Shown: positions 5,645 to 34,366 of the stretch, piece after piece
Layout: each line of letters begins with the position of its first letter
How positions within the stretch are numbered: position 1 is the stretch's first letter
DNA from: Malassezia furfur
Taxonomy: Eukaryota
Assembly: GCA_052055015.1 (NCBI GenBank)
Contig: JBQJIT010000070.1
DNA length: 35,849 nucleotides
Strand: one strand, 5' to 3'
Program-made: the position numbers and the translations under genes
The notes under the pieces: generated by a model
Database searches by the model: none
What the model was told of the DNA's origin: nothing
The model's input: the letters and a program-made list of their open reading frames with translations, nothing else

Positions 5645-6412
5645 ATGGTGGGCGGCCCCGACGCGTCCAGCGGGTGGTGGCCGTGGGCCCACAGTGGCGG
5701 TGCGTCGCGCGCCGAGCGCGAGGCGAGCATGCCAGCCCATGCAGCCGATGCACATGCGCCGGTGCAGGACGTCGCACTCCCCGTGCCGCCGGAACGCAAC
5801 GTGCCGCACCTACCGCCGTACGAGGAGCCCAAGGAGCCCCCGCTCACGGTCCACTTGCCGCTCAGCACATTGCTGGTTTCGTGTGCCTTTGGTATTGGGT
5901 TTGCATCGGGCGTGCTGGGCGGTGCGCGTCGTACCGCGCTCGTCTACCTGGCTGAAAATGCACACCGATTGCCGCGCACTGTCCAAGGATGGTACTTTTA
6001 CAACAAGACAAAGTACTACCGCATGATCCTGGGGGGCGTTCAGCACGGCGCACAAACAGGACTGCAACTCGCGGGATGGACTGCCGGATTCTGCCTGTTG
6101 GACGTCATGGCCGAGCATGGGCGGCAGCGCTGGATGCTTCGGCGCCCGGTGCCGGCGTTCAACGACCGTGCGGAGCGGCCCCTGACGTCTTACCTTGGGC
6201 ATTGGTCGGACGGTGCCCTTGCGGGCTCCGCCACGGGGCTCATCGCCGCAATTACTTGTACGTCCCATGCTAACGCAGTCCGCTTCTCCCGACCTGTTTG
6301 GCTTCGCGCCGTGTTGCTGGGCGCTGCAGCAGGCGGCCTCACGGGCGCCTTGCGCGATGTGCGTCAATCCATTTTGGAACAGAGCGACCCCGGACGGCCG
6401 CACATGATCTAA
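5645..6412 (+). CDS. Conserved fungal multi-pass membrane protein, Tim17/Tim22/Tim23-like, probably mitochondrial
   Basis: Gly-rich TM segments and the fungal motif LAENAHRLPRTVQGWYFYNKTKYY. Probable in-frame 21-nt intron at 6258-6278 (GTACGT...GCTAAC.CAG). Confidence 0.75.
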   Translation: MVGGPDASSGWWPWAHSGGASRAEREASMPAHAADAHAPVQDVALPVPPERNVPHLPPYEEPKEPPLTVHLPLSTLLVSCAFGIGFASGVLGGARRTALVYLAENAHRLPRTVQGWYFYNKTKYYRMILGGVQHGAQTGLQLAGWTAGFCLLDVMAEHGRQRWMLRRPVPAFNDRAERPLTSYLGHWSDGALAGSATGLIAAITCTSHANAVRFSRPVWLRAVLLGAAAGGLTGALRDVRQSILEQSDPGRPHMI

Positions 6413-6413
6413 C

Positions 6414-6794
6414 CTACGCACGGTTGCCGGCAGCGACGCGCGCCTCGGCTTCCGAGTAAAACTGCTTCTGGCGCTCGTCCAACACGCGCCGTTTGTTGAA
6501 ATAATCCACCTGTATTAGCTTAGAACCTACCCAGCTCTTAGCACAATTCCCCTCGTATTCGTCTCGCAGCGGCGTGCACGGGTCGTTCTTGCGTTCGTCG
6601 GCTGCTTTTTGCGCGCGCTCTGCTTCAGAGCGAGGCGGATCGCGAAATGCGCCACGACCCAGAGGACCAGGCGTGCCCGACATGTCGGTTCCCGGTGGCG
6701 CAAAAATACCGTTTTTCGTTAGACAAGCATAGTACACGTCGCGGCTCTCCCAGCACCGCTGGCGACTGCTTCGCGACACGCCCGATTGCGACAT
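6414..6794 (-). CDS. COA6: Cytochrome c oxidase assembly factor 6 (COX6B-like CX9C...CX10C protein)
   Basis: RQRCWESRDVYYACL...CTPLRDEYEGNCAKSW. Removing the 21-nt intron at 6510-6530 restores CAKSWVDYFNKRR. Confidence 0.85.
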   Translation of the reverse strand: MSQSGVSRSSRQRCWESRDVYYACLTKNGIFAPPGTDMSGTPGPLGRGAFRDPPRSEAERAQKAADERKNDPCTPLRDEYEGNCAKSWVGSKLIQVDYFNKRRVLDERQKQFYSEAEARVAAGNRA

Positions 6795-6841
6795 GGTCCA
6801 AGCGAGAAGCCTCGGCCGACAGAACAAGCACACCGACACCC

Positions 6842-7784
6842 ATGCGCGCGGGGTCGTCCGACAGACCGGGCGAGCCGTCCAACTCGCTTCCTAGCCGCGC
6901 AGCAGAGGCTAGCGCTAATGTGGGCAGCCGGTTCGTTGGAAAGCAGGATCAAACCGAGGACTCGCTCAAAATTGAGACCGTAGGGCTGGTCCGTCTCGAG
7001 GATTTCCAGCGTAAGCGCGAAGAGCTTCTCGAAGATAAGGAATATGCTTCAGAGCGTGACGCAGAACTACGGTATGCTGCATAGCTCACACAGAGCGAAG
7101 AAGCGCGAGGAGAGGCGCAAGAAAGGACGAAAGGCACAGGCAAAGCTGTCCTTCTCGCTGGACGAGGAGGAAGAGGAAGACCTGCTGCCGTTGCCAAAAC
7201 GCATCCGGGCTGACAAGGACAAGAAAAATGTCAAGGACCCAAGCGTTGACACATCATTTCTTCCGGACCGGGAGCGCGATGCGGAGGAGTTGCGACTCCG
7301 AGACCAACTCAAGGATGAGTGGCAGCAGCAGCAGGAACAACTCAAGAGAGAAGAAATGGAAGTCACCTACTCATTCTGGGATGGCACTGGTCACCGCCAT
7401 TCGGTGAAATGCCGGAAAGGCGATTCTATTGCCGACTTTCTCGAGCGATGCCGCCAGCAGCTTCACCAATTACGCCATCTGCGTGCTGACAATCTGCTCT
7501 ATGTGAAGGAGGATCTCATTATACCGCATCACTATACCTTCTACGATCTAATTGTATCCAAAGCGCGCGGCAAATCTGGTCCTCTTTTCCACTTTGATGT
7601 GCATGATGACGTGCGGCTTCTAAACGACTCTTCTGTGGAAAAGGACGAATCACATGCAGGTAAGGTCGTTGAGCGTGGGTGGTACAACCGACACAAGCAC
7701 ATATTCCCTGCAAATCGCTGGGAGGTATACGATCCAGACAAAGATTACGGCGCGTACCGTTACGCCGACCGCGCAGCGCCCTAG
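6842..7784 (+). CDS. XAP5: XAP5/FAM50 family nuclear protein
   Basis: [10 protein letters not shown] in exon 1. [50 protein letters not shown] and [10 protein letters not shown] in exon 2. The exons are joined by a 22-nt intron at 7072-7093. Start codon uncertain. Confidence 0.92.
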
Positions 7785-7821
7785 CCCGGGGGAGGTGGTT
7801 CCGTGCGCCATAGTACTCCAC

Positions 7822-7836
7822 TTTTTTTTTTTTTTT
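7822..7836 (+). repeat. T15 homopolymer, poly(dA:dT) tract
   Basis: 15 consecutive T between the XAP5 stop and the SUA5 start. It is the only long homopolymer seen in the window. Confidence 0.9.
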
Positions 7837-7920
7837 AGATTCGCAGCTTCGGCAGACCACTGCATGCCCATAGCGGCTCGGCGGTTTGCACACATTTCAT
7901 TGCAAAGGCTTGGTCATTGT

Positions 7921-9300: not shown

Positions 9301-9365
9301 TAAGAATCATGTATTGTACATACAGTAACTATGATGCCAATTGCATAAGGTATAGAAGTGGTTGC

Positions 9366-12996: not shown

Positions 12997-14497
12997 ATGC
13001 TCCGCTCGGCTGCGCGTGGGACCGCTCGGCGGTCGTTTGGAACGCACGCAGCACGGCACCGTACATCGACGCCGGGCATCTCGACTCCGTCTACGGCTGC
13101 GGCGAGTGACGAGGACTCGGCAGCGCTTGGTCGATTCTTTTACCGCAACCGCATGGTCCAACAATGGGGCAACGTCCCCGCAAAGCGGACGACCCTGCGC
13201 CAGCTTATCCTGTTTGGGCAGTCCGCCCAACGGCATCGCGGACTGCTCATGGAGAGTGCCAACTACCTGCGTACCGAGGTCACTACGCGCATTGCTCACC
13301 GTCTGCGTGATATGCAGGCGCTCCCGTTCGTGGCCATGTCGAACGAGCAGCTCGATTCGATCTACCAGTTCTTCTGGAGCACGTTTGAGACGCTGCGGCG
13401 TATGGAGCGAATTGAAACGCTGGAACAGAATCAGGAGCTGATCAAAGTCATGACCGGCCTCCTGTCGGAACGCAAGAGCAAGCTGGCGCTCATCGCCGGA
13501 ATCAGCCGAGAGTGTGTGTACTATATGGAGCCCGAGACCGTGGACTTGTTCCTTGCGCGCATGCTCCGCTCACAGGTATCGCGTGAGGTGCTGGCCAAGC
13601 AGCACATTGCCTTGACTGCGATGCACCGCTCGGGCGAAAAGTCCAAGGGTACCAAGATCGGGATGATCGACACGGACCTGGACGTCGCCAAGTCGGTCGA
13701 GAAGAGTGCAAAGATTGCTAAGGAGTCTATCGCATCACTCAATGGATGGGATCAGGATGACCCTAGGCTCCCAGAGGTGACGCTTGACGGCGACACGGAC
13801 GTGCACATCGCCTACGTCACCGAGCATCTCGAGTTCATCTTGCTGGAGCTGATCAAAGTATCGATGCAGTCAACCATGGCGCGGTTCACTAACGCATCGA
13901 TCCGCGAAATGAGCCGGTCGCCCCCACCAGTACAGATTACGATTGTGAATGCGCCAGGGCGTGGTGATATGGTGATCCGTGTGTCTGACCGTGGCGGTGG
14001 ACTGCAGTCCGACGAGCCCTCGTTTGAGCGCCTGGAACAGGAGTACGAAGTGACTCGGGCGCGAGGGCCAATTCTGCTGCCACGCAGTGACAAGATGCAA
14101 CGCGATCCCGAGAGTGGTCTTGTCTGGTCGTTTATGAACATTGGCGAGCAGCTCGATCGGATGAACATCCAACTCGACGAGACCGAATCGATGGAACGCG
14201 CCTCGCATTCGGCATCGTCTGCTGACCCTAGCGCGTCCTACCCTGGTGGTGATGGACTGATGCGCTTGTCGGTGCTCAACATGGAGTCGAAGAACGGTCT
14301 TCCTATGTACGTTGCCCAACTAACACCAGTGTCAAGTTGTATGCCGACCTGTTCGGCGGTGGTCTCGACTTCCGGACGCTAGACGGGTACGTATCCATCG
14401 ACTTACCCCAGCTACGGTACGGACATGTATCTGCGCCTGCCCAAATTTGGCACATCGAAAGGTAGGTGCCCCGACTGACCCAGAATTGCACGAGTAA
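12997..14497 (+). CDS. Mitochondrial alpha-ketoacid dehydrogenase kinase family protein (PDK/BCKDK, Pkp2-like), possibly degenerate
   Basis: Presequence-like N-terminus, TLRQLILFG, SANYLRTEVTTRIAHRLRDMQALPF and IRVSDRGGG. Introns 14307-14329 (23 nt) and 14387-14411 (25 nt) restore GLPIVKLYADLFGG...LDGYGTDMYLRLP. A third intron at 14462-14483 (22 nt) gives the end KELHE*. Confidence 0.88.
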
Positions 14498-14517: not shown

Positions 14518-15702
14518 CTATCCAATCCCTAGTGTTAGTCCGTAACATACAGTGCATGATCAGAAGCAACAGGCCGCTGATCACAAAGAACATCGACAGG
14601 AACCGGTTCGCGGCACGGTTGCGCTCTTTGGCTTTGCGAAGCTGCACGTTGCCGCTGGTGACTTGCTCGCCGTGACCAGCCGCCTCGGTCTGCAACTGAC
14701 TTGTCTGTTCGTTTTGCTCCTGGAGATGTTGCATAATGCGAGTCTGTAGTTCCGAAATATCGTGCAGTTGCTGCTCTGCATGCTGCACAGCCTGCAATTC
14801 GGATTGCAGCGACTGAATCAGCGCGGATGCTTCCTCCTCAAACAGCTGAACCTGCTCTTTCGTCAACTCTTGCGCAAGGTCGTCGCTGGCTGACTGGCTC
14901 AGTGCTCCTGCACTGCCACGCAAGTTTGTGGCCGAGACATCGCCTGTCGGCCCACTGCGCAGTACTTTCTGCGCACCATCGGCAAGTTTCTGATGGCGCT
15001 GTTGCTCGGCTTCGACGCGACGCTGCTGCAGCGTGGCTTGGACAGACGAAGCACGGGCCAACTGTTCAGAAAGGTACTGCGTCACAGCTGCATGGTATGC
15101 CGCCGTTGCATCAGATGCACTCTGCTGCCGTGCAATGGCACCACCACGCAAGAGCATCATGGGGCCCAGTGCCGAGCTCCTTGCCGAAGAAAGCGACCGG
15201 TCCACGGCCTGCTTCCGCACTGCATCAGTCACTTTCACGTACGTTTTTCGCCGCGTTCCAGTTCTTGTACACTTTCAAGACACTTTTTTATGACTAGCTT
15301 GACCTGAAAATCGATCTCATCGCGCTCGGTATCATTGAGTGTGTGGATGTGCTGCCACTTTGCAAAGGCGTCGTCGGCGGTGTGCTCTGCATCGAGGCCC
15401 GCCTCGTCACCGTCCTTCCAGTCAGTGGAAGAATATCGTCCCTTGGACGAAATGTCAAGATATGGCCGCCGGATTGCAGCGAGAAAGGTATACAGAGATG
15501 CAATTTGCCGTTTCTGATGAGCGCGTATACGTACAATTCGATAGGCCTCACGCGTCCAAGACTCGGCAGCACTTCGTTGCTTCAGCTGCGCAGCGTTGGG
15601 TTTCGGAGGGGTATCTACCTGAATGCCCTTGCTTTCACACTCGTGCAACAGTTGGCGGAACGCACTGGTGTGGTCCACGCGCGGAGGAATGGGTCCCCGC
15701 AT
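14518..15702 (-). CDS. UFE1: ER Qa-SNARE syntaxin-18/Ufe1
   Basis: N-terminal DHTSAFRQ, EAYRI, IRRPYL and LNDTERDEID. SNARE coiled coil LHDISELQ...GNVQLRKAKERN and a C-terminal TM. Introns at 15514-15534 (21 nt), 15220-15242 (23 nt) and 14529-14550 (22 nt). The frame closes at 373 codons. Confidence 0.88.
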
Positions 15703-15737: not shown

Positions 15738-16657
15738 CTATTTCCGACGGCGTTTCTTGCCCGTATATTTTGAGTCGCGCGGCACATTCTGGGTGAGTAA
15801 AGGCACATACCGTCTTGCCTCGCGCACGGTCAAGTTCTTTTTTCCGTAGGATGTATTGCTTCACTGTCTCGCCCTTCTTCTTCTTTTTGTTCCGCTCGTG
15901 ACGGTCGTCACGTACACGGCGCTGCTCATGACGTACCACGTTGGCCTCTTCGTGTTCAAGGGCCTGGGGAAGCTGCTGCTTCACACCCTGGCCCTCACCG
16001 TTGGGGCCCACCATCATTTCACCACCGACCCAGAGGACCAGGTAAATCTTTTTCGCCTTGACTGAGTTGGGATAATCAACGACAAGACCACCACCAAACC
16101 CAGCCTTCGTTGCCTGCTGCATAATAAATTGGACCTGGTCGTCGTTCTCTGGATAGAACTGGAAGACACATCGAGCGCCGCGGGTGAGCGACGCATAGAG
16201 AGTGGTGAAAAAAGTACTCAGCCGCGCGCCGGGTGCATTGTACGACGTGTCTGCATTGCAAAGCCATTGTAGAACCGAGATACTGATCGCACCATCGAAG
16301 CTGCCAGGGCGGAACATGCATCCATGGCCTGCGTCCGCGAGCATCATATCTCCCTCCACGTCACGTTCGAGTCCCACACTTAACATGCTGGGACTGATGT
16401 CAAAGCCAACCCATTCGTAGCCTTCCTCGGTAAGGATTTCGCCCGAAAGGCCGGATCCACAACCGATGTCGAGAACGAGCGCAGGCTTCCGGTGTTCGGG
16501 AAGCGCCATGAGCTCGATTGCACGCAGCGTCATTTCTGCTTGAATCTCTTGATTGCGGGTGCTGCGTTAGTTAGGTAACGCACTTGGCCGTATACTTCCG
16601 CGCCTCTGTATCGCCATAGTAGATTTCCGGCGGCGCCTGGTGCTCTGGGCGGCTCAT
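15738..16657 (-). CDS. BUD23: 18S rRNA (guanine-N7) methyltransferase
   Basis: MSRPEHQAPPEIYY, LDIGCGSGLSG, FDGAISISVLQWLCNAD and GFGGGLVVDYPNS. Introns 16562-16583 and 15789-15810 (22 nt each) restore the C-terminal VPRDSKYTGKKRR. Confidence 0.96.
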
Positions 16658-16822: not shown

Positions 16823-17719
16823 CTAGTGGCGACTAGCGCGGCCTTTAGCTGCAGCCGGCTGAGCAGGCCCCTTTCCTGGGCCCGGAGCGACGCGACCGCC
16901 CGCCGCACGTGGCTGCGCGTCCTGCACGTCTTCCGGCATCGGCAGCATGAACAGGATGACGATAGGAAGAATGTAGTACCAGTATTTTCGAAGGAAAGCC
17001 ACGAGGTCAAATGGCGCCTCGGCCTTCTTCTTCGCCTCACCCTCAGGCGTGTTCTCGTCGATCTTTTCTTTGAGACGCAACGGTCTGGGTAAGTAGTACA
17101 ACGTACGTATCAGGCACCACAGGTACACTCACGGAGACCACTGTAGAGAATCCATCAGAGTGCGGGGCCTCGCCATCGTAGATCGGGCAGGCCTGGTTGT
17201 TGTATGGCACGCGAGGCAGAATTTCGTACGTAAGGCCTACCACATAAGGAGGCGACGAAGTATCTCCGATATTGAGTGGTTGTTTGGAAAGGTGCACCTC
17301 AATGGTATCTTCCACCGGCTCTCCTGGCGGGGCACGCAGTTGACACTGGGTGAGAGCGGCTCACGTACGAGTTTGGTCATGGTCGAAATCCCCTCCTTGC
17401 CGTTCACTTTGGAGGGCCACACGTCGGCAGAGAAGGTACGCGCGTCGCCCTCAACGATCTTAATCTGGTAAAAGGCGTTTTCATCGTTCGGCGGGAAAAC
17501 CATCTCCGAAGGAATTCCCTCGTTGACAACAAGACCCTCGTCGCCGGCGACCGTAGTCGGATAGCGAACCAATGCCCGCGGTTGCCAGGGCATATTCACC
17601 TGCTTTCCATCCTCGCCGATCGTCTGGACACGATGGAGAAGTGTATACGTCTCGCTCTGTGCGGCCACGAGCGCCGCACACACGGCGCCCATCCACACCC
17701 ACCTCGGCATGATCGTCAT
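16823..17719 (-). CDS. EMC10: ER membrane protein complex subunit 10-like type I membrane protein
   Basis: Signal-peptide-like N-terminus and FLRKYWYYILPIVILFML before a short tail. Introns at 17346-17368 (23 nt) and 17085-17106 (22 nt) join three ORF fragments in frame. Start at 17719 or 17710. Confidence 0.75.
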
Positions 17720-17729: not shown

Positions 17730-20700
17730 CTATACAACTAACCACTGTCGATACAGGCGCTGGGCGAGATGTGGAGACCCCGCACTCGCATACAACAGCG
17801 CCAGATTATAAGCGGCTTCGCGCGCCATACAGAAGCCCTGTTCAGGCCGCACATTCCCTTGTGCGAGCTCGAGGACGCGCTGATAGCGGGGGATCGCAAG
17901 GTGGGATAATCCTGCGTGAGTTAGACAACGAACCTAGGTGGTGATAGGCGCGCCCGAAATTGTATTCTGCCTCGGCACTGCCAGGTCGGAGCTGTGCATA
18001 TTGCGTGAGGAAAGCCATGCCCTGCACGATCGTGTGGTTTCGGTTGTCCACTTGACGATTCGTTGCGCGACTCAGGCATGCTACGCTGCAGAGGAGGCAC
18101 AGTAGCGGATCATCCTGCTGGAGTGCATACGCACGGAGTAGATACCCTGTGTTAGTCACGGCACGCACCCATCGCCGGCTGGTAGCTACCCGCACACAGC
18201 ATCAGATAGCCATAAAACATCTCGCTAATTGGCGACGACCGCGTCGGCACAGGCTGTACACTTGCTTCCGTCATGCGTGTCTCATCAGGATCGGCGATCG
18301 ACTCCTCAGCGTCATCGTCGTCAGCGCCCGCGATCGTCCAGCGTCCATTGCGCGCATTGATTTTAGCAGGCCGACCTGAGACAATCGCCTCCTGCGTACG
18401 CATCCGGCGCTGGTACTGCTTCGTGTTGGTGGCGCTCACAAACGCGTCGACGCCGTAGAAACCCATGCCGTTCGCGACTGATGCAATGAGGCGCAGCGGC
18501 TCATTGTGGAATTGATAGTGCGTGGGAAGCCAGCGCACAACATCAAAGGCACGCGTAAAGTTGCGCGAGTACATTGCGCATGCTTTTGGTTAGTTGGCGA
18601 CGTACCAAGCCAGCACAGATGCAAAGCCGTCTTGCGTGCCTCGGACGGCCAAACGGTGTTGGATACCATGATGTGCCGAAACAGGTCATGGATTGTGTCG
18701 TCTTCATCGCCTACCTTGGCAAGGCCCACAGCATACTGCGTAAGCAAAGCACATACCTTCATAAAGAGCAGCACCCAGTCATCAAAATCGACCGTACGGA
18801 ACGCCGACTGCTCAGGCGCGTCGTTGGACATTTCCTCCGCTGACTGTAGCGCCGCATCGTCCACGAGACGGTCGCGCAACCGCGAAAGGAGCGCTTCCGC
18901 CTGGCTATCCAGATCCAGTGCCTTGACTCGCCGGTTCCGACGGGGACGGACGACGCCACGGTATTTCGTGTAGCGCTCCTTGGGAAACAACAGTGACATC
19001 GACCTAAACGAGTCAATCAGGCGTCCGGCCACCTGCATCCATTGGCGCGTTGCATCAAACCGCTTGCGTTCACTCTCGACCGACGTTCGCGGCTCGTCAG
19101 GCGCATCAACCGACCCATCCAAAAAGACGAAGTCTGGATGCCAGAACCCTTCGACAAACACTAGCGGCTCCAGCGCAGATAGCTGCACCCACGCGAGGCG
19201 GGTCTCCTCCTCACGTTGCTGCTCGAGACGCTGGCGCTCGGCAAACGAAATGCCGGAACGTGAGCCGCGAGTCGATGCGCTTTGTGCTGCGCCTGCACCG
19301 CCTGGCGCGCCAGCCTCATTAAAGAACGACAGCGAGCTCGCCTCGTCCTCGGGCACAGGCCCTGTGGACGCGACAGGCGCAGTATGGCCCAATGTGGTGC
19401 CCTCGGTAGCGCCATCAGCTTGTCGCAGCTCATTGCGCGCCACCAGTACTTCGTTAACAAGGCGCAGGGCCTTTTCACGATCGCCCAACTCTTCGCACAC
19501 CTCTGCAAGGCCAAGTTTGACGTCAAAGTTGTCGGGGTTTGCCTCGAGGACCGCCTCGTACACCTGGGCAGCCTCGCTGGGCATACTGAGGTGCTGGAAA
19601 CACATGCCCATCTGCACGTACAGCTGTACATCATCCACCAACCCATCGTCAGCGAGCACCCGGTAGAGGTCGAGCGCGTCGCTATATTGCTGATACTCGA
19701 AGAAGCAGTCTGCCATCTCGAGGAACAGCATGGATTGATCGACCATCTCCGCATCATCCGCCAGGATGGTAAAATGCCGGCGCCCCTCGTCAAAGTCCTT
19801 GAGCATGAATCGAGCTTTGCCAAGTCGCAAGCGGACTTCGCGGTCCAAGACATGGTCAGCAGAGTCGTCCAGCTCCAAATCCTGCTGCGCATCCTCAGGA
19901 AGGTCCTCACGTGGATGCCCCCGCATCCATCGGATGGTTTGCTTTATCACCAGAATAACCTGCAGCGGCCGGCGCAGCAGGAGAAGTAGATCGGCGAGTG
20001 TGACCAGCTCATTGAGCGTGAAGTTGACCTCGGCGCGAGTCGCCTCTTGTAGTGCGGGATCCAGGTTTGGATCTGGGAAGGACACGCCACTCATGCTTGC
20101 CTGCCGCATCTTTTCGAGAATCGACACGCCCGTTTCGTACTCACCTAGTGAAACAAGCAGTGGAATCAGCTCACACAACACCTCGGCATCATAGGGTCGG
20201 ATGCGTAGGATCGCCTGGAACGCCTCCACGGCGGAACGCTGGCGTCCAGAGTCCTTGAGCATCACCGCACGGTCCCAAATCGCGTCAACGTCGTTGCGGT
20301 TCTTCTTGATGGCCTGCTGCAAGCAGTAGATCGACTGCTGCAGCAGGCCCCGCTCGCGGCTGCGACGCGCAAGAGATTTCCACTCATCGCTTGCGTTGCT
20401 CGTGAGGTGTGCACCGACAATACGGCACTGGATCGACTTCTCCTCTTCGCCGAGTTCCTCAAAGCACATTCCCAGGGTGTACCAGGCACCCTTGACTGTG
20501 GGCTCGATGCGGATCACCTCCTCGAGCCGCCGGATGGCGCCTGGCAGATCCGCCTCGACATAAGAGATATTGGCTTGCGCTAGAAGCGCGCGAACCTCCG
20601 ACGAGAGAGCCTGCTCACGGATGCGCGTTGGCTTATGTTTACGCGCGTAGCCATTAACGTCGCGTAACTCGTGGTGAAACGACTCCATCTCCTCCTCCAT

Positions 20701-21067: not shown

Positions 21068-22566
21068 ATGGAGGCGCCGCCTGCGTACCGGCGACCCGGT
21101 GAGCGGATCGCCTACTACTACGATAGTGCGTCCAACAACTTACCCAGATGACGTGGGGAACTTTTCGTACGGGTTCGGTCATCCTATGAAGCCGCATCGC
21201 ATGCGCATGGCGCACAACCTGATTGTCAACTATGGTCTGGACAAGAAGATGACCATCCTCGTACGTGCTTTTGCTCATCCAGCGTCCCAAGCGCGCCACC
21301 AAGGAGGACATGACTAAGTTTCACACCGACGAGTACATTGATTTCCTGTCGCGCGTCTCGCCAGAGACCGTGCAGGAGCTCACGGGGGATGGGACACGCT
21401 TCCTGATCGGCGAGGATTGCCCCGCGTTCGACGGCCTGTTTGAGTTTTGCACAATCTCGTGCGGTGGCTCAATTGGTGCGGCAAACCGGCTCAATGCTGG
21501 CCTGGCGGACGTCGCGATTAACTGGTCCGGCGGCCTGCACCACGCCAAGAAGCGCGAGGCGAGCGGCTTCTGCTATACCAACGATATTGTGCTCGCGATC
21601 CTCGAGCTGCTGCGCACACACATGCGCGTACTGTACATTGATATTGATGTCCACCACGGCGACGGTGTTGAGGAGGCGTTTTACTCGACAGACCGCGTGA
21701 TGACTGCCTCTTTCCACAAGTTTGGTGACTTTTTCCCCGGCACCGGCGACGTGCGCGACGTTGGTATCAAGCGCGGCAAGAAGTACGCGGTGAATGTGCC
21801 GCTGCGTGACGGGATCGATGCAGAAAGCTATGCATCCATCTTCCGTCCCGTTATCCAACACATCATGGATTGGTTCCGCCCGGGTGCCGTCGTGCTACAG
21901 TGCGGGGCGGACTCGCTGGCCGGTGACAAGTTAGGCTGCTTCAACCTCAATATGCAGGGCCACGCGGCGTGTGTTGAGTTTGTACGCTCGTTTGGCGTGC
22001 CGCTCATCTGTGTCGGTGGCGGTGGCTACACGGTGCGCAACGTCGCCCGCACCTGGGCGTACGAGACGGGGCTGCTTCTCGGCGAGCAGTTGGACAAGAA
22101 CCTGCCCTTCAACGAATATATCCAGTACTATGGCCCCGAGTACAAGCTGGACGTGCCCAAGAGCGGCATGGACAATCTCAACACGCCCGCCTACCTAGAC
22201 AGTCTGCGCACGCGCATCATCGACAACCTGCGCTCCATGCCATTTGCACCGAGCGTACAAATGCAGCATACGCCGCGTCACTCGCTCAACCCCGCGCTGG
22301 ACGACGACGAGGAAGGCGACGACGACCTCGGTGCTGACGAGCGGGTCAGTCAGCGAATGCGCGACCTGCATACCCAAGCCTTCGACGACGAGCTGAGCGA
22401 CGACGGCGAGAACGCCGACGAGCAGATCGTCGCGTACGAGTCGGACATGGCCGCGATTCGCGCACCGCCCAACTACACGCGCACGCATGACTGGATCCGG
22501 TCCGTGCATGCGCCACCGGTGGTACCATACGGCGCGCCGCCAGTGCTGCCCTACCCACCTGCCTAG
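21068..22566 (+). CDS. Class I histone deacetylase (Rpd3/Clr6-like)
   Basis: Spliced N-terminus [56 protein letters not shown] and GGGGYT are intact. Introns at 21126-21147 and 21261-21282 (22 nt each). Confidence 0.96.
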
Positions 22567-23233
22567 TTAGTGGCCGCGCTTTTTGCGCCATTCGGCGATG
22601 CCGCGGTCGAAGGTGGCACGGTCTAGGCCCTGGTTGCCGACCAGCACAAAGTGCACGCCGAGCTTGCGCTCGACCTCGGCTGCGGTCAATGCGAATGCGA
22701 GTGGCCAACCTACCATTGCGGTGCTCGTCGTCGAAAAAGACTGGTGTTAGCTGTGTACGTACTCATGTCGCGATATTCTACCCCCGATGCCTTAGCAATG
22801 TTGGCAAAGTGCGCAACCTTGGAGCCTGGGTAGATCTCAAGCTGGTCAAAAAGGTCTGCGTCAGCATCGCGCACGCACGGATCGCCTTCGTGACGTTTTT
22901 GCGCTCCGACGCGCGGCCTGTTTGCCGCGGCGGGCGGGTGTGCACCGTGTCGCCTTGATCAATCATTAGCTCTCGCAGTGCCTGGCGCGCCACAGCCGGC
23001 GCCGCAGTGCGCGACGCCGCCGCAACGTGCACGCCGCGGTCTTTCAGCTCCAGCAGGATGGACGGTACGTCGCGGAAAAACGCTAGCTTGACGCCGCTGC
23101 GGTCCACCACCTCGTTCAGTGCATCATTTCGACGCTTGAGCGGCGGATCGATGTGCGTATCTACCCAGTAAGGCCATAGCGTGTAGTCCAAGTCGAAAAC
23201 GACCGCCTTGGGCAGCGGTGCGTCGGTAGCCAT
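22567..23233 (-). CDS. MDP1: Magnesium-dependent phosphatase 1 (HAD IIIC)
   Basis: VVFDLDYTLWP and AAASRT. Splicing restores LEIYPGSKVAHF and MIFFDDEHRN. Introns at 22856-22878 (23 nt), 22741-22762 (22 nt) and 22680-22713 (34 nt). Confidence 0.92.
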
Positions 23234-23277: not shown

Positions 23278-24892
23278 ATGAGCGGCGCCCCGCGTGCGTT
23301 TTACGAGGGTGCGTACGAGCGAGCACTACCGCACATTGAGGCGATTCGCTCACGCCTTCCGCACTTCTCGTCACCGCTGCTGCGTGTGCAGCGCGTGGGT
23401 CAGCTCGATGCCGACCTGCTTGACGAGGAGCTCACCGACCTGCTCGCGGAGCCAGTCAAGTCGGCGCTCCGCAACGTCTCTCCATCGGTGAGCACGCGGC
23501 ACGTCGACGAGATCTATGTTCTCCTGCGCCTCGTACTATACAAGTTTAGCATCTACGACCGCGGCGCGTCGTATGGTGCAATGCTGCAGAACCTCAAGTA
23601 CCGCAACGAGTGGGCACATACGTCGAACCGTACGTGACCGACGCCTGACCCAGTGCAATCGACCGCCCGTGACGCGCCGTTGCGCGCCTTCCAGCTGACG
23701 TTGTATCCTGTGCTGCGTATACTCCTACCCTATTGCTACAACAAGAGCAAGTCGTACATGAGCGACCAGGGCTACGCTGACGCACCGAGCGACAGCCCCG
23801 AATTCGTCGCGTGGTCGCTGGCGGAGCAGGGGCTGCGCGTGTACAATATCTTGGCGCTACTCAACTTTGCCGCATTCTTGTGGAACGGAAAGTACCGCAC
23901 GATTGCCGACCGCATGCTGGGCATGCGCCTCACCTACGCGAACCGTGCGCTGAATCGTAACGTCTCGTTCGAGTTCCTCAACCGTCAGCTTGTCTGGAAC
24001 GCCTTTACGGTATGTCTCGCGACTCACGCAGGAATTCCTCTTGTTCCTTCTGCCGCTTGTGCGGCCCCAGCGTCTGCTCAAGAAGCTGGCTCGGCTGCCG
24101 ACGCACCCGACAGTGCTTTCGGCTCTGCACGGTGCCCTGCCCAAAGGCATCACGCAGCGCATGAACTTGCACAAAGACCAAGAAGGGCGCGTGCGTATCG
24201 GCACCCGCAAGGAAAAGACACATTTGGGCCGCTACTTCTACCTTCCCGAAGAGTGCTGTGCACTCTGTTTCCAGCGTCTCGAACGTGCCGCAGGCGTTGA
24301 GGTTGACGTGCGCCCCGCCATTCGCACAGCGCCGCCATCGCCGCCACCGCCACCGCCACGCGTCACTATCCCTAATGCGAACCCGCTGCATGCCAGCAAA
24401 GGGCTTGTCGCGCGCCGGCGCAATCGGCAGAAAGACGGGGAAGCCGAGACACCGACAGCCGAATCGAGCGACGCCGCGCAGCGTGCGGCTGCACGCGCCG
24501 CAAAGCTTGCCGAGCGGCGCGCGGCCCGCCAGGTGCGTGCGTCGGCGCCAGCGCAGCCCACTGAGACGCGGCCGAGTCTATTGGCCGCGTCACCAAACGG
24601 GATTCGGTACCTGGATGCGCTTGCCACGACGCCGTACGTCACGCTTCCATGTGTTGATCATGGGCACGCGTGTGTTTACTGTTACTACTGCATTGCTGAA
24701 CAGCTCCTCTCGGAGAATATGGCCGACGAGCTGCAAGACCAGGGCGGTTGGGAATGCCTACGGTGTGGCGAGTACGTCTGGGGCGCGCGGCGGCGTGATG
24801 ACGTTAATGCGCCGGAACTCGAGGCAGAGACGGCCACCAAAATGGACGCGGATGCCCTGCTGGATGCACAGGTGCCCAATACACCGACGTAG
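23278..24892 (+). CDS. PEX2: Peroxisomal RING E3 ligase peroxin 2
   Basis: RVGQLDADLLDEEL, ASYGAMLQNLKY, GKYRTIADRMLG and VSFEFLNRQLVWNAFTEFLLFLLP (after splicing). Split RING CALC...PC..GHACVYCYYC...WECLRC. Introns at 23630-23653 (24 nt) and 24010-24031 (22 nt). Confidence 0.95.
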
Positions 24893-27354: not shown

Positions 27355-27413
27355 GGTGCAAAAAGTAGGCTTAGTCACGCCTCGTGCGCCGCCCCTGCCC
27401 CTCCTCCACAACG

Positions 27414-30503: not shown

Positions 30504-30510
30504 AGTACAA

Positions 30511-31137
30511 TTAGTCGCTCCCCGCGAGAAACTCTTGCATGGTGCGAGTCGCCGCGCGCCCTGCCGTGAGCAGCACCTGCTCGCTGTCGTCCAGGCCCTG
30601 CATGAACGCCTGCATATCGTGCGTGAGCGCCGCATCTGTCGACCGCGCGCTGGCGTCGGCCGGCGTTCGCGAAAGCAACACAGCCAGCTCGTAAATGCGC
30701 GCGACGCGGCCCACGTAGGTCTGCGGGTATGAGCGCACCACGTACCTTGGACAGCATTGCATACAGCGCGTCCGACTCAAGCAGCCGCGCGAGGCGCACC
30801 GCCAACGCGTACCAGTGGGGCAGCAGGTTGTGCAGCTGCACGCTCGTTGGACTCGCATCCAGCGCCGCACGCACGCGTGATCCAAATGCACGAGGCATCT
30901 GTATTGTGACAATCTCGCTGTGTGAGCCCGCAACACCTACTACAAGGCGAGCATGTGGGCCATCCAGTACACGAGCTCCACGCGCGTGTGCTTGTGCATC
31001 TGTGTGAGTGTTTTACGTACATCGACCTCGCCGGACTCTTCCAGGTAGCCCAGCCCAGGCACGTCCACGCCAAACGTACACGGGAGCCGCTGCGACTCGG
31101 CGAGGATCGCCTCAACGCTCCAGTAGTCGGCGTCCAT
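30511..31137 (-). CDS. PSF3: GINS complex subunit Psf3
   Basis: DYWSVEAILAESQRLPCTF...PGLGYL, VELVYWMA and FMQGLDDSEQVL. Introns at 31000-31020 (21 nt), 30918-30940 (23 nt) and 30721-30745 (25 nt). The frame closes at 186 codons. Confidence 0.92.
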
Positions 31138-31277: not shown

Positions 31278-33012
31278 CTATACAGTGTATACTTTGATAC
31301 GGTCCTCGTACGTCTGCAGTGTCGCAGGCGTAAGCGAGGCAATCTCGTCTAGCAGCGCAGGGAGGAACGTGCCCGGCCCACGCACGCCAGGCGCCTTGAC
31401 GGCGCGTTCGGCCGCGACAGTAAACGCAAACACGCCGAGTAGTGCGCCGACGAGAAGCTCACGGTGCGTGCGCGGCAGCGTTATGCGCTGCATGTCCGCC
31501 GATCCAAGCTGCACGCCGTAGATATGCATCGCACTCGCAAGGCCCGCTGCGACCATCACCCCAAGCGAGCACCCCGTCGCCGTCACGCGGCCGAGCAAGG
31601 GTGTCCCGCAGTGCGACTCGATCACGACCTCGCCATTCGTAAGATAGTCCACCTCTCCAGTGAGCAGCACCAGCGCGCCCTCCTGCATCGCAAGCTGCGC
31701 GGCAAGGTGCGCCGGACTCGACAGCGCGCCCACGCTGTCGACGCCTTGCGCCTGCGCCTCGGTAGAGCCCGCGAGCTTGCCAATCTCGGCGGCATTGCCC
31801 TTGATGAGCGTCACTTGCGTTTGGTTCAGAATGTCGTTCGCAACCTCGTAGCGGAACGGCGTCGCACCGACGCCCACTGGGTCCAGCACCACGGGCGTCC
31901 CGCGCGCATTCGCCGCTGGCCCCGCCACCGCCATGCCCTGACGCGCCTCGTTATTGATCGTCCCGATGTTGAGCACAAGCGCACGCGTCGCTTGACTCAG
32001 TGCCACGGCCTCCTCTGCCTCGTGGCTCATGATCGGGCTGGCCGAGAAAGCGAGCGCCACGTTGGCACTAAAGTACGACGAGACGTGCGACGTGATTGTC
32101 TGTACCAGCGTGCGAGGCACAGTGACGTGCGTGTCGTCTTCGGTGTGCGTCGTCGGATTGTACACGGTGTGGTGTGCCTTCAGCAGCGATGCCACCGCCG
32201 TAACCAGCTCGGCTGGGGCCGCAAACGGACTCGGCAGCGCGTGCGTCGTGAGCGACGACATTGCGATACGTGACGATTGCTCCGCCTGTGCTGCGCGGAA
32301 CGCACCGAGCGCCGCGTACAGCTCAGCGGCCGCCCGCCCTGGGTCGCGACGTGCAACAATCGCCGAAATCACCGCGAAACCGTCGGGTGCATTCTGCGAC
32401 GACGATGCGCCCATCATGGTGCGCATCACCGTGCGCAGGTTGATGCCACCGATCAGCACACATGGCATGCGCAGCCGCGCGCCGGGGGGGGCGTCCTGCT
32501 GCGACCGTGCGAGAGCCGCCACCGTCTCGCGCGCACCGTCGAGCATCATGACGTCGTCTTTGGTGACGCCGGCCTTGGACTGGGTGCCCCAGCATGGCCC
32601 GACCCCGGCATAGTCCGCATCACTGTCGAGCGCCGCACGCGCCTGCGCCGCATCGTGCACCGAGATGCCAATGAGGCGTCCCGAACCCAGGCGCCGGCGC
32701 GCCTCGGCCAACCGGGTATCGTCCTGACCAATATGAAGTCCAACGCGCTCGGGAAGTGCCGCAGCAACGTCCACGCTGTCGTTGATGACCATCGTCGCGC
32801 CATACTTGTCGCAGATCGTCAGCGAATCCTTGGCGATTTGGAGAAACTCGTCGTATTCAGCATCTTTTTCGCTGCGTCAGCGGCGCAACATACCGAATCT
32901 GCACAATCGACACATGCCCATCGCGCAGCGTCTCCTCGAGGCTCGCCAGGTAGGACACACCCTCGGGCAGCAGCTCGCGCCCCGTCACCAGGTACAGGCC
33001 GTACTCGGGCAT
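31278..33012 (-). CDS. THI6: Bifunctional thiamine-phosphate synthase / hydroxyethylthiazole kinase (ThiE-ThiM)
   Basis: YGLYLVTG, VQIREKD (across the 22-nt intron at 32872-32893), INDSVDVA and GLHIGQDD. ThiM part has ASPIMS, VVLDPVGVGAT, IKGNAAEI and VTATGCSLG. Confidence 0.95.
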
Positions 33013-33028
33013 CGTCGCGCACGGTTGT

Positions 33029-33038
33029 GTCACGTGAT
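33029..33038. promoter_or_regulatory. Palindromic E-box GTCACGTGAT (Cbf1/bHLH-type) in the divergent THI6/RSM18 spacer
   Basis: Exact motif near the middle of the 49-nt gap between divergent ATGs. The same GTCACGTG core occurs in the LYS2 spacer. Confidence 0.45.
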
Positions 33039-33061
33039 ATCATCGGCGCTCCTCTTCGCTC

Positions 33062-33703
33062 ATGCTTCGAAGCACCTGGAGCGCCGTCGCCGGCGTGCGC
33101 ATGGCGCGCGCGCCGCTCGCTCGTGCCCCGCTCATGCAACTGCGTCTAAAGAGCAGTAACGAGGGGCCCCAGAAGCCGCAGGCAGATGACTCTGCGCAGG
33201 CGAAACTCGACCAGCTCGCGAGCTTCCTCGAGAGCCAGCCCAAGGAGCAGCCAAAGCCCACGCCGCGCTCGCCCCGGGGCCAGACGCAGCGCCCAGCCAT
33301 GGCCGGTGCACGTCGCCAGGACCAGGTGGGACCGACCAAGACGTTCCAGAACGGCCAGTATTACGACCCATACACCCTCGACCCCACCAACATGACCTTC
33401 CAGCCACGCCGTCGTGCGCTGCCGCTGCTCGGCCCGTCGAAGCGCGAAGCGATGAAGCAGGACCCTATTCATATCCTCGGACTGAACCCGGCAAAGCCGT
33501 CTCTGGCCGACGACACCTACAAAAACGGGACACTGCTCTCGGAATACGTGTCGGAAATGGGCAAGATTCTGCCCCGCAACGTGACCGGCCTTACGCGCAA
33601 GAGCCAGCGGTATATTGGCAAGGCCATCCGCCGTGCGCGTGCACTTGGTATCCTGCCGGTCATGAGCCGCGGGCGCGGGTCCAAGGGTGGCGATTGGAGA
33701 TAG
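33062..33703 (+). CDS. RSM18: Mitochondrial ribosomal protein bS18m
   Basis: Arg/Ala-rich presequence and S18 domain YKNGTLLSEYVSEMGKILPRNVTGLTRKSQRYIGKAIRRARALGILP. Confidence 0.93.
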   Translation: MLRSTWSAVAGVRMARAPLARAPLMQLRLKSSNEGPQKPQADDSAQAKLDQLASFLESQPKEQPKPTPRSPRGQTQRPAMAGARRQDQVGPTKTFQNGQYYDPYTLDPTNMTFQPRRRALPLLGPSKREAMKQDPIHILGLNPAKPSLADDTYKNGTLLSEYVSEMGKILPRNVTGLTRKSQRYIGKAIRRARALGILPVMSRGRGSKGGDWR

Positions 33704-33704
33704 A

Positions 33705-34366
33705 TTAGTCGTCCTCGTCGTCCGCAGCTGCTGCCGTAGTCGGCCCCTCATGTTCAAAGTGTTCTTCGGGAAACGCATCCTCGTCCATCGCCATCTCGTC
33801 CGCGGCGTATGTATCCGGCGCTTCGTCCAGCACCGGCTGCGCCTCGACCTCGAGCGGCTCGACCTGCGCTTGTGGTGCAGGGAGATGGGTGATGACACAC
33901 TGCAAAATGTCGTCGATCTGCTCATCCGACATGCGTTGCCCAAGCTCTTCGACGAGCTGCGTAAGTACGTTGACGTACCGTGTGTAGCTCCACGACGCTC
34001 ATCGGCGCATGGTTGACCAGCTGCAGCCGCTCAGCCTTGGTCAGGCCCGGTGTGCCCTGCAGGATCTTGGCGTCGGACGGGGCATAGCCCTTGTCGTCCA
34101 GTGCCTTAAGAAACCCACTGATGTGGTGCGCCTCTTGTCGTGCACACGGTCGGTGCGCCTGCGAGAGCGATGCAATCGTCTGCGTTGGTGCATGCACGTA
34201 CCTCGAACTGGATGGTGCGGACATTGGGTGGCACGGCCTTCATCCACGCCTCCGCATCCTCGTTGTCCGATCGCGCAGCTTCGCGTTGCCGCGTCTCGGT
34301 GTCGCGCAGCAGCTGAAGCACCTCGTAATCCGACAGGAGCGCCGCCCGCGTCTTGACAATGCGCAT
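33705..34366 (-). CDS. RPC17: RNA polymerase III subunit C17/RPC9 (Rpb4 family)
   Basis: MRIVKTRAALLSDYEVLQLL and LTKAERLQLVNHAPMSVVELHTLVEELGQRMSDEQIDDIL after removing introns 34180-34201 and 33957-33978 (22 nt each). Confidence 0.92.

What the first reader, a model, noticed from the sequence alone, without database searches (positions are those of the whole stretch)
6258..34201. Fixed intron geometry: 16-19-nt lariat loop, AG close behind the branch point, no pyrimidine tract
Seen: in the 21-25 nt introns checked, the branch-like A of CTNAY is at intron position 16-19. The intron ends 4-9 nt (usually 5-6 nt) after it, leaving no polypyrimidine tract. Established: yeast and human spliceosomes need a substantially longer 5'SS-to-branch spacing to hold U1/U6 and U2/SF3b together. 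Inference: a ruler-like recognition mechanism and a remodelled spliceosome, for example reduced U1 snRNP, U2AF or SF3b/RES components, or sequential rather than simultaneous U1/U2 binding.
Basis: partly seen in the sequence, partly recalled or inferred. Interest (0 to 1): 0.7.

Follow-up and report, generated by a model that had tools for sequence, protein, structure and literature searches.

The report
Near-minimal 22-nt introns of Malassezia
The window comes from the skin yeast Malassezia furfur or a very close relative, and most of its genes carry real introns only 21-25 bases long with a near-constant layout, which is a little-noticed fungal example of the known class of "tiny introns" and not a new kind of splicing.

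Summary
Observation confirmed. I curated 30 GT-AG introns in 14 of about 23 genes. Lengths are 21 (5), 22 (15), 23 (6), 24 (1), 25 (2) and 34 nt (1). The branch-like A of (R)CTNAY lies at intron position 16-19 in 29 of 30, and at 28 in the 34-nt intron. The intron ends 5 nt after that A in 22 of 30 (range 4-9). No intron has a pyrimidine run longer than 5 nt. The strict pattern occurs 28 times against 1.8 +/- 1.3 in 300 shuffles.

The organism is Malassezia. One protein is 100% identical to an M. furfur entry. Very short Malassezia introns are already in print as annotation statistics: mean 30 bp in M. sympodialis, median 30 in M. restricta. Fixed branch positions with a roughly 5-nt tail are known in Stentor, Trichomonas and Yarrowia.

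The spacing is about three times below the roughly 50-nt minimum reported for human spliceosomes. A strict ruler is unlikely, because one intron here has its branch at 28, and orthologous introns are 23-27 nt and 29-115 nt in two syntenic relatives. Spliceosome remodelling could not be tested, since no genome or reads were available.

The parts
6258..6278 (+). Intron, 21 nt. Branch A at position 16, 5 nt to the 3' end. Lies in a membrane-protein gene (5645-6412).
   Evidence: Motif. In frame with no stop, so ORF logic is silent. Annotated orthologues P0128 and P0145 lack these 7 codons, while P0126, P0129, P0130, P0131 and P0133 read through with variable 8-10 aa inserts.
6510..6530 (-). Intron, 21 nt. 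Branch at 16 (CTAAT), tail 5. Lies in the COA6/COX6B-like gene (6414-6794).
   Evidence: NCBI-annotated orthologues P0121 and P0123 lack the 7 codons. ORF-derived entries P0122 and P0125 read through.
7072..7093 (+). Intron, 22 nt, with a GTATGC donor. Branch at 17, tail 5. Lies in the FAM50A/XAP5 gene.
   Evidence: Removal joins two coding segments, and retention gives a frameshift and an in-frame stop. No comparative test was done.
14307..14329 (+). Intron, 23 nt. Branch at 17, tail 6. PDK/BCKDK-type kinase gene, intron 1.
   Evidence: The spliced model aligns without gaps to the intronless orthologue in L001 across the junction.
14387..14411 (+). Intron, 25 nt. Branch at 19, tail 6. Kinase gene, intron 2.
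   Evidence: as for intron 1.
14462..14483 (+). Intron, 22 nt. Branch at 17, tail 5. Kinase gene, intron 3.
   Evidence: as for intron 1.
14529..14550 (-). Intron, 22 nt. Branch at 16, tail 6. Syntaxin-18-like gene, last intron, followed by a 3-codon final exon.
   Evidence: Motif and frame only. The comparison with L001 was weak (135 against 124).
15220..15242 (-). Intron, 23 nt. Branch at 18, tail 5. Syntaxin-18-like gene, intron 2.
   Evidence: L001 has a 38-nt intron at the same site (166 against 126).
15514..15534 (-). Intron, 21 nt. Branch at 17, tail 4. Syntaxin-18-like gene, intron 1.
   Evidence: The Pfam Syntaxin-18_N profile runs 2-53 on exon 1 and 55-77 on exon 2. L001 has a 47-nt intron at the site.
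15789..15810 (-). Intron, 22 nt. Branch at 17, tail 5. Bud23-type methyltransferase gene, intron 2.
   Evidence: Orthologous introns of 33 nt (L001) and 26 nt (L002).
16562..16583 (-). Intron, 22 nt. Branch at 17, tail 5. Bud23-type gene, intron 1.
   Evidence: Orthologous introns of 43 nt (L001) and 27 nt (L002).
17085..17106 (-). Intron, 22 nt. Branch at 17, tail 5. EMC10-like gene, intron 2.
   Evidence: Motif and frame. The downstream exon matches Pfam ECM10 positions 62-98. The comparison with relatives was inconclusive.
17346..17368 (-). Intron, 23 nt. Branch at 18, tail 5. EMC10-like gene, intron 1.
   Evidence: Orthologous introns of 37 nt (L001) and 27 nt (L002).
17912..17933 (-). Intron, 22 nt. 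Branch at 17, tail 5. TPR (TFIIIC-subunit-like) gene, intron 4.
   Evidence: L001 has a 52-nt intron at the site (170 against 108). For L002 the aligner's 40-nt intron option beat no intron by only 2 (155 against 153), and one tblastn match runs straight across the site, so I read the intron as absent there.
18147..18168 (-). Intron, 22 nt. Branch at 17, tail 5. TPR gene, intron 3.
   Evidence: Both relatives lack an intron here, and the spliced model aligns best to their unspliced DNA.
18583..18605 (-). Intron, 23 nt. Branch at 16, tail 7. TPR gene, intron 2.
   Evidence: Orthologous introns of 75 nt (L001) and 25 nt (L002).
18736..18756 (-). Intron, 21 nt. Branch at 16, tail 5. TPR gene, intron 1. 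In frame with no stop.
   Evidence: Both relatives lack exactly these 7 codons. The read-through version needs a 7-residue gap.
21126..21147 (+). Intron, 22 nt. Branch at 17, tail 5. Class I histone deacetylase gene, intron 1.
   Evidence: At this junction the spliced model aligns without a gap to the orthologues that cover it and are not read through. Orthologous introns of 33 nt (L001) and 26 nt (L002).
21261..21282 (+). Intron, 22 nt. Branch at 17, tail 5. Histone deacetylase gene, intron 2.
   Evidence: L002 has a 24-nt intron at the site, and L001 has none.
22680..22713 (-). The exception. Intron of 34 nt, with a TTGAC branch at position 28 and tail 6. MDP-1-type phosphatase gene, intron 3.
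   Evidence: Read from the sequence. The downstream exon is conserved in L001 and L002. Orthologous introns are 115 nt (L001) and 23 nt (L002).
22741..22762 (-). Intron, 22 nt. Branch at 16, tail 6. Phosphatase gene, intron 2.
   Evidence: Orthologous introns of 88 nt (L001) and 23 nt (L002).
22856..22878 (-). Intron, 23 nt. Branch at 18, tail 5. Phosphatase gene, intron 1.
   Evidence: The Pfam Acid_PPase profile runs 2-89 on exon 1 and 98-127 on exon 2.
23630..23653 (+). Intron, 24 nt. Branch at 19, tail 5. Pex2/Pex12-type gene, intron 1.
   Evidence: The Pfam profile runs 1-64 on one exon and 69-188 on the next. An in-frame stop appears if the intron is retained. L001 has a 40-nt intron at the site.
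24010..24031 (+). Intron, 22 nt. Branch at 17, tail 5. Pex2/Pex12-type gene, intron 2.
   Evidence: Both relatives lack an intron here, and the spliced model aligns best to their unspliced DNA.
30721..30745 (-). Intron, 25 nt. Branch at 16 (CTCAT), tail 9. An alternative A at position 18 is possible. GINS Psf3 gene, intron 3.
   Evidence: L002 has a 23-nt intron at the site, and L001 has a 29-nt candidate. The spliced models align continuously to L002 across the junction, while the L001 alignment has a 5-residue gap there.
30918..30940 (-). Intron, 23 nt. Branch at 18, tail 5. Psf3 gene, intron 2.
   Evidence: The spliced model aligns without gaps across the junction to the spliced L001 and L002 orthologues.
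31000..31020 (-). Intron, 21 nt. Branch at 16, tail 5. Psf3 gene, intron 1. In frame with no stop.
   Evidence: as for intron 2. The PSF3_N profile matches 1-30 just before the junction.
32872..32893 (-). Intron, 22 nt. Branch at 17, tail 5. Thiamine-phosphate synthase / hydroxyethylthiazole kinase gene.
   Evidence: Exon 2 starts at TMP-TENI profile position 33, leaving positions 1-32 for the 39-codon exon 1. Frame logic also fits.
33957..33978 (-). Intron, 22 nt. Branch at 17, tail 5. Rpb4/RPC9-type gene, intron 2.
   Evidence: The Pfam RNA_pol_Rpb4 profile runs 69-91 on one exon and 92-112 on the next, meeting exactly at the junction.
34180..34201 (-). Intron, 22 nt. CCAAC branch at 17, tail 5. 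Rpb4/RPC9-type gene, intron 1.
   Evidence: Read from the sequence. Profile order is 1-39, then 69-91. Removal gives one ORF starting at the ATG at 34366.

Best explanation
These are ordinary U2-type GT-AG spliceosomal introns of Malassezia (M. furfur or a close relative) that have shrunk to a lineage-specific steric floor.

About 15 of the 22 positions are signal:
- a GTAYGT-type donor at positions 1-6;
- a 5-7 nt unconstrained linker;
- an RCTNAY branch box with its A at 16-17;
- one free base, then CAG.

The 3' splice site is the first AG at least 4 nt past the branch A. No pyrimidine tract exists, so tract reading of the U2AF65 type cannot contribute.

The near-constant geometry is the sum of two independent minima, 5'SS to branch and branch to AG. 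Genome compaction has pushed most introns against both. It is not a ruler that rejects longer spacings.

A 16-19 nt spacing cannot fit the published human A/B-complex geometry. Early assembly must therefore be either more compact or sequential (U1 leaving before U2/SF3b is fully seated). That step is inferred, not shown.
For: Reality of the introns:
- All 30 have GT-AG ends, and 29 of 30 have a GTNNGT donor.
- 25 of 30 would shift the frame or add a stop if retained.
- All 14 spliced models have no internal stop.
- I count comparative or profile support for 25 of 30.

Signals are sufficient on their own:
- The strict pattern has 28 hits against 1.8 expected, and 26 of the 28 are curated introns.
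- The 3'SS is the first AG after the branch in 30 of 30, although 9 of 30 have an AG upstream of the branch.

A floor, not a ruler:
- Among GTNNGT donors paired with a downstream branch box plus AG, none has the A below position 16, and no curated intron is shorter than 21 nt.
- The distribution has a right-hand tail up to 34 nt, with that intron's branch at 28.
- 5'SS-to-branch and branch-to-end distances are only weakly correlated (r = -0.28, n = 29).
- Orthologous introns are 23-27 nt in L002 and 29-115 nt in L001.
- In the relatives, homology favours the AG 6 nt after the branch A over one 3 nt after it in both 3-nt cases tested. In a third L002 intron only the distal AG, 7 nt after the branch, keeps the reading frame.

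Precedents:
- A 5-nt tail behind a fixed branch occurs in Stentor.
- An anchored branch-to-AG distance without a pyrimidine tract occurs in Yarrowia, Trichomonas and Giardia.
- Trichomonas type B introns follow GTWYWD-N7-TCTAAC-H1-2-AACAG.
- The human minimum spacing is about 50 nt.
Against: - Splicing, its efficiency and the branch nucleotide are all inferred.
- The sample is 30 introns from one 36-kb window, so the floor rests on small numbers.
- Five introns rest on motif and frame alone (7072, 14529 and 17085), or on only partial profile evidence (32872 and 34180).
- The relatives with longer introns are different species, whose spliceosomes could differ. The 34-nt intron could be spliced poorly. 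A lineage-specific ruler is therefore not excluded.
- The protein and snRNA complement was not examined.
Confidence: 0.65

Rival explanations
1. A molecular ruler measures 16-19 nt from the 5'SS to the branch, in a compositionally remodelled spliceosome with reduced U1 snRNP, U2AF, SF3b or RES, or with obligatorily sequential U1/U2 binding.
For: - The branch position is very narrow: 29 of 30 at 16-19, with sd 0.85 nt.
- The spacing is three times below the human minimum.
- No tract is available for U2AF65.
Against: - One intron has its branch at 28.
- Orthologous introns reach 115 nt in a congener.
- The distribution is one-sided.
- Stentor splices 15-nt introns with all snRNAs and most core proteins reported as conserved.
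- The window keeps FAM50A.
- No component inventory was possible.
Confidence: 0.2
2. Some of the in-frame 21-nt elements are not obligatory introns. They would be optionally retained, adding 7 residues, so part of the set is dual-use coding sequence.
For: - 5 of the 6 introns whose length is a multiple of 3 have no in-frame stop.
- Several database proteins read through them.
Against: - Where tested, orthologues lack exactly these codons.
- The inserts vary in length and sequence between species, as introns do.
- The read-through entries are mostly automatic ORF calls.
Confidence: 0.1
3. The pattern is chance, or an artefact of my gene models.
For: 2 of the 28 strict matches are not introns, which is as many as chance predicts.
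Against: - 28 hits were observed against a maximum of 6 in 300 shuffles.
- All curated sites lie on the coding strand of a gene and restore conserved proteins.
Confidence: 0.02

Closest known systems
Annotated short introns of other Malassezia genomes: M. sympodialis with 5350 introns, mean 30 bp, 99% with RNA-seq support (PMC5389616, passages); M. restricta with median 30 nt (PMC9241646, Table 1); and 'very short introns' in a review (PMC7426719)
   Same: Same genus, same intron density (about 1.2-1.3 per gene), and the same order of length. RNA-seq support in a congener shows that such introns are spliced.
   Different: Those papers, in the passages I read, give length statistics only. They say nothing on branch position, branch-to-AG distance or a pyrimidine tract. 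In this window the mode is 22 nt, and 29 of 30 introns are 25 nt or shorter.
Trichomonas vaginalis type B introns, pattern GTWYWD-N7-TCTAAC-H1-2-AACAG, validated by RT-PCR (PMC6260720, passages)
   Same: About 25-26 nt long, with a strong donor, a yeast-like branch box whose A is at about position 18, a short fixed tail and no pyrimidine tract.
   Different: Only a handful of introns in an intron-poor genome, with a 7-8 nt tail. Here this is the majority class at more than 1 intron per gene, with a 5-nt tail.
Stentor coeruleus 15-16 nt introns (PMC9505925, abstract and sections 2.1 and 2.5)
   Same: Near-invariant branch position and a 5-nt 3' tail. The same open question of how a full spliceosome handles a sharply looped lariat.
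   Different: A 10-11 nt loop, AU-rich, with a weak branch consensus. Here the loop is 16-19 nt, in a 57-73% GC window, with a strong RCTNAY box.
Anchored branch-to-AG 3' ends of Yarrowia lipolytica, T. vaginalis and Giardia (Irimia and Roy 2008, PMC2483917, sections read)
   Same: No pyrimidine tract, and a branch box at a fixed few bases from AG. Yarrowia's box plus 2 nt plus AG equals the 5-nt tail seen here.
   Different: Those lineages are intron-poor (about 0.1 per gene or fewer), and Yarrowia introns are not tiny by my recollection, which I did not check. That paper contrasts 'few introns, strong signals' with 'very short introns, degenerate signals'. Malassezia combines very short introns, strong signals and moderate density.

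Membership tests
U2-type (GT-AG) spliceosomal introns | GT at the 5' end and AG at the 3' end | tested here: met
   30 of 30
U2-type (GT-AG) spliceosomal introns | Extended donor consensus of the GTAYGT/GTRNGT type | tested here: met
   GTACGT 15, GTATGT 5, GTAGGT 4, GTGCGT 4, GTATGC 1, GTTCGT 1. Complementarity to U1/U6 is recalled, not tested.
U2-type (GT-AG) spliceosomal introns | Branch box with a bulged A upstream of the 3'SS | tested here: met
   CTNAY in 28 of 30, plus TTGAC in 1 and CCAAC in 1. The base before the box is a purine in 28 of 30.
U2-type (GT-AG) spliceosomal introns | Removal restores a continuous, conserved reading frame | tested here: met
   All 14 spliced models lack internal stops. 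I count comparative or profile support for 25 of 30 junctions.
U2-type (GT-AG) spliceosomal introns | Excised from RNA through a lariat at the branch A | not testable with these tools
Tiny-intron class with fixed branch position (Stentor, T. vaginalis type B) | Length of about 26 nt or less, with the branch A at a near-constant distance from the 5' end | tested here: met
   29 of 30 are 21-25 nt, with the A at 16-19.
Tiny-intron class with fixed branch position (Stentor, T. vaginalis type B) | Short, near-constant 3' tail and no pyrimidine tract | tested here: met
   The tail is 5 nt in 22 of 30. The longest pyrimidine run is 5 nt or less.
Intron-poor lineages with convergent strong 3' structures (Irimia and Roy 2008) | About 0.1 introns per gene or fewer | tested here: not met
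   30 introns in about 23 genes in the window. M. sympodialis has 5350 introns in 4493 genes.
Intron-poor lineages with convergent strong 3' structures (Irimia and Roy 2008) | Branch box anchored a fixed few bases before AG | tested here: met
   compared with section 9 of the paper.

The most novel reading that the evidence does not exclude
M. furfur's spliceosome commits to 21-25 nt introns by an early pathway that differs in kind from the yeast and human E/A/B route. One version has U1 and U2/SF3b never bound together. Another has no SF1-U2AF step at all, backed by lineage-specific loss or reshaping of early factors. Either would make this transformable yeast the first fungal model for minimal-intron splicing.
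Probability: 0.25. Interest if true: 0.75.

Novelty: new member of a known kind. Interest (0 to 1): 0.4.

Why it matters
How a multi-megadalton spliceosome assembles on introns shorter than its own pre-catalytic footprint is still open. A 2026 paper calls the constraints on intron length "poorly understood", and its list of lineages with introns under 30 nt (ciliates, microsporidia, dicyemids) does not name Malassezia, at least in the first of three parts that I read (PMC13644364).

Malassezia offers strong, yeast-like signals and about 22-nt introns in most genes. Congeners carry 30-115 nt introns at the same sites. The yeast is culturable and transformable: a transformation system for M. furfur is mentioned in an abstract (PMC5654937, listing). 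Spacing rules and factor requirements are therefore directly testable.

There is also a practical side. ORF callers and some annotations read through these introns, leaving spurious 7-10 residue inserts or truncated models in public protein sets.

Tried and rejected
Tools and data that were unavailable or empty:
- Whole genome: not held, so no genome-wide census and no spliceosome inventory.
I ran the count in Python instead.
- Rfam on the window, L001 and L002 gave 0 matches, so no snRNA was available to examine.
- Earlier scan notes had nothing on this genome or sequence. A word search returned only two Ostreococcus intron notes.

Searches for further introns:
- A relaxed ORF-joining scan was too noisy in this GC-rich DNA and was dropped.
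- A position-weight scan and a codon-usage scan found few further candidates. They missed the 34-nt intron, which I found by hand after Pfam showed a missing C-terminus.
- Other introns with weak signals may therefore remain unseen.

Candidates left out of the count:
- + strand 1141-1171 and - strand 9293-9323, both 31 nt, which lie in 3' or intergenic regions.
- + strand 17103-17136, 34 nt, which is antisense to a gene.
- Two strict-pattern hits inside the TPR gene's first exon (20399-20418 and 19093-19114), which would break a conserved frame.

Steps that failed or were ambiguous:
- A script meant to tabulate branch positions in the relatives' introns did not run. The cross-species figures come only.
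- The L001 result for phosphatase intron 1 and the L002 results for syntaxin intron 2, EMC10 intron 2, TPR intron 1 and TPR intron 4 were ambiguous and were not used as orthologous introns.

Literature:
- Ten searches found no paper describing branch position or branch-to-AG spacing in Malassezia.
- The library is open-access only, and I opened no supplements. Supplementary Figure S8 of PMC5389616, on intron sizes, may bear on this.

Full report
**What the window is.** The window is GC-rich (56-73% in 2-kb bins) and densely packed with about 23 genes on both strands. A histone deacetylase exon finds its best named relatives in Malassezia: M. yamatoensis at 84% and M. vespertilionis at 80%. Exon 1 of the gene at 5645-6412 is 100% identical over its full length to a protein named as Malassezia furfur. 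I therefore treat the window as M. furfur or a very close relative. Everything below rests on this window, two related loci, protein databases and papers.

**The observation.** A plain scan for GTNNGY ... CTNAY ... AG already showed a striking series of 21-25 nt elements. I built spliced models for 14 genes and curated 30 introns.
- Two of the 30 had been missed by the CTNAY filter. The other is 22680-22713 on the - strand, 34 nt, with a TTGAC box. I found it because the Pfam profile of the phosphatase was left without its C-terminus.
- Lengths are 21 x5, 22 x15, 23 x6, 24 x1, 25 x2 and 34 x1.
- The branch-like A is at position 16 x8, 17 x15, 18 x4, 19 x2 and 28 x1.
- The A-to-3'-end distance is 4 x1, 5 x22, 6 x5, 7 x1 and 9 x1.
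- Donors are GTACGT 15, GTATGT 5, GTAGGT 4, GTGCGT 4, GTATGC 1 and GTTCGT 1.
- The base before the box is a purine in 28 of 30, and the base at -3 of the acceptor is C in 28 of 30.
- No intron has a pyrimidine run longer than 5 nt or a T run longer than 4 nt. The linker is 49% pyrimidine against 50% for the window.

**Chance.** The strict pattern has 28 start sites on the two strands. The mean in 300 dinucleotide-preserving shuffles is 1.8 (sd 1.3, maximum 6). 26 of the 28 are curated introns. The other two lie inside a conserved exon and would break its frame. Pairing each of the 281 GTNNGT sites with downstream branch-plus-AG boxes gives 28 pairs with the A at 16-19, none below 16, and only scattered pairs beyond, mostly 1 per position with one position at 4. 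Single signals are not specific: only 20 of 47 GTAYGT sites and 27 of 89 CTNAY-N1-5-AG sites are real. The specificity lies in the combination at that spacing.

**Are they introns?**
- 25 of 30 would shift the frame or bring an in-frame stop if retained, and all 14 spliced models are free of internal stops.
- The deacetylase model was aligned with 12 orthologues. At both junctions it matches without a gap those that cover the site and are not read through.
- The three kinase introns are absent from the syntenic relative L001, whose uninterrupted sequence aligns without gaps across all three junctions.
- Both relatives lack exactly the seven codons of the in-frame 21-nt intron 18736-18756.
- Pfam profiles continue across junctions in the syntaxin-18, phosphatase, Pex2/12 and Rpb4-type genes. 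In the last the profile meets at 91|92.
- NCBI-annotated COA6 orthologues have the spliced form.
- I count such support for 25 of 30. The remaining five have motif and frame only (7072, 14529, 17085) or only partial profile evidence (32872, 34180).
- No RNA evidence was obtainable. The branch nucleotide is inferred from the box's likeness to the yeast and Trichomonas branch consensus.
- In the congener M. sympodialis, 99% of 5350 annotated introns, of mean size 30 bp, have RNA-seq support (PMC5389616, passages).

**Rules that can be read off.**
- The acceptor is the first AG after the branch A in 30 of 30, although 9 of 30 have an AG upstream of the branch. This fits acceptor choice from the branch onward.
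- In the relatives I tested two introns that carry an AG 3 nt after the A and a second one 6 nt after it. In both, only the distal AG restores the spacing conserved in all orthologues. In a third L002 intron only the distal AG, 7 nt after the branch, keeps the frame. The smallest tail in the window is 4 nt.
- The two distances vary little (sd 0.85 and 0.89 nt) and are only weakly correlated (r = -0.28, n = 29). That is what two separate minima would give, and not a constraint on total length.

**Relatives.** One metagenome scan with the deacetylase exon returned two syntenic Malassezia-like loci.
- L002 (57% GC) has 23-27 nt introns at ten orthologous sites.
- L001 (51% GC) has 29-115 nt introns at thirteen orthologous sites.
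- The window's 34-nt intron corresponds to 23 nt in L002 and 115 nt in L001.
- Several window introns are absent from one or both relatives: kinase introns 1-3, TPR introns 1 and 3, Pex2 intron 2, and deacetylase intron 2 in L001.
- Within one genus, therefore, the same intron positions are served at 5'SS-to-branch spacings from about 17 to about 100 nt.
- A script that was to tabulate branch positions for these relatives did not run. I give lengths only, taken from earlier outputs.

**How it most likely works.**
- Shown: the layout and the sufficiency of the combined motif.
- Inferred: the chemistry is standard U2-type chemistry. The donor pairs with U1 and then U6, the box pairs with U2, and the first AG at least 4 nt downstream docks for the second step.
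- With the A at 17, only about six unconstrained bases separate the donor hexamer from the purine that opens the branch box.
- Passages of PMC6692369 put the human minimum 5'SS-to-branch distance near 50 nt and the two helices 15 nm apart in the B complex. The pre-catalytic arrangement described for human therefore cannot hold here. Either the complex is more compact, or binding is sequential.
- Nothing here shows which of these holds, or whether components are missing.
- Stentor splices 15-16 nt introns (branch at 10-11, 5-nt tail) with all snRNAs and most core proteins reported present (PMC9505925). Drastic reduction is thus not a prerequisite.
- The window encodes a FAM50A/XAP5 homologue. 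In a Cryptococcus study, loss of this factor changes retention of introns according to branch-to-3'SS distance (bioRxiv 10.1101/2021.03.19.436190, passages).

**Comparison with what is known.**
- Very short Malassezia introns are in print as statistics or as a passing remark.
- M. restricta was annotated with a minimum intron length of 15-20.
- Anchored branch-to-AG distances without a pyrimidine tract are described for Yarrowia, Trichomonas and Giardia.
- Trichomonas type B introns have nearly the same layout as here.
- Irimia and Roy contrasted intron-poor lineages, which have strong signals, with short-intron lineages, which have degenerate signals. Malassezia combines very short introns, strong signals and more than 1 intron per gene, so it fits neither class neatly.
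- Ten literature searches found no description of branch geometry in Malassezia. The library is open-access only, and I read no supplements.
- The scan's own notes hold no earlier finding on this DNA. They hold only two Ostreococcus cases of uniform intron signals, both judged ordinary.

**Verdict.**
The steric conflict is real, a strict ruler is unlikely, and remodelling is untested.
- This is a new, well-marked member of the known tiny-intron kind, in a tractable fungus.
- I score interest at 0.4.

Noticed in passing
window 6258-6278 and 6510-6530; proteins P0002, P0008, P0122, P0125, P0126, P0129-P0131, P0133: Public protein entries for Malassezia orthologues, including named NCBI entries, read through the tiny introns. 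This leaves 7-10 residue inserts that differ between species. Other entries for the same genes are spliced.
   Followed up: partly
window 6647-7784 (+): This gene has a C-terminal XAP5 domain (E = 1.6e-51) and is a FAM50A homologue. FAM50A is a spliceosome accessory factor whose loss in Cryptococcus changes retention of introns according to branch-to-3'SS distance (passages). The true start codon was not settled.
   Followed up: partly
window 14307-14483, 18147-18168, 18736-18756, 24010-24031; L001, L002: Seven window introns are missing from one or both syntenic relatives. Six of them (three in the kinase gene, two in the TPR gene, one in the Pex2-type gene) lie at these coordinates; the seventh is deacetylase intron 2 at 21261-21282, absent from L001. 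Introns have therefore been gained or lost recently within the genus. The direction was not determined.
   Followed up: partly
L001 9855-9887; L002 6139-6162 and 3411-3435: In the relatives, an AG 3 nt after the branch A appears to be skipped in favour of one 6-7 nt after it, judged by homology or by reading frame.
   Followed up: partly
window 1141-1171 (+) and 9293-9323 (-): Two 31-nt elements with good donor, branch and AG signals lie at or beyond gene 3' ends. They may be terminal or UTR introns.
   Followed up: no
window 49-call table: 6258, 6510, 15514, 18736, 31000: 5 of the 6 introns whose length is a multiple of three have no in-frame stop, so retention would be invisible to nonsense-mediated decay. 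I recall, but did not check, that Paramecium differs in this respect.
   Followed up: no
window 1184-5593 (-): A 1470-residue NRPS-like protein with a partial condensation domain, an adenylation domain, a carrier domain and a reductase domain. By recollection this resembles alpha-aminoadipate reductase (Lys2). It has no intron.
   Followed up: no
window 7822-7836: A run of 15 T in the short spacer between the FAM50A-like gene and the Sua5-type gene.
   Followed up: no
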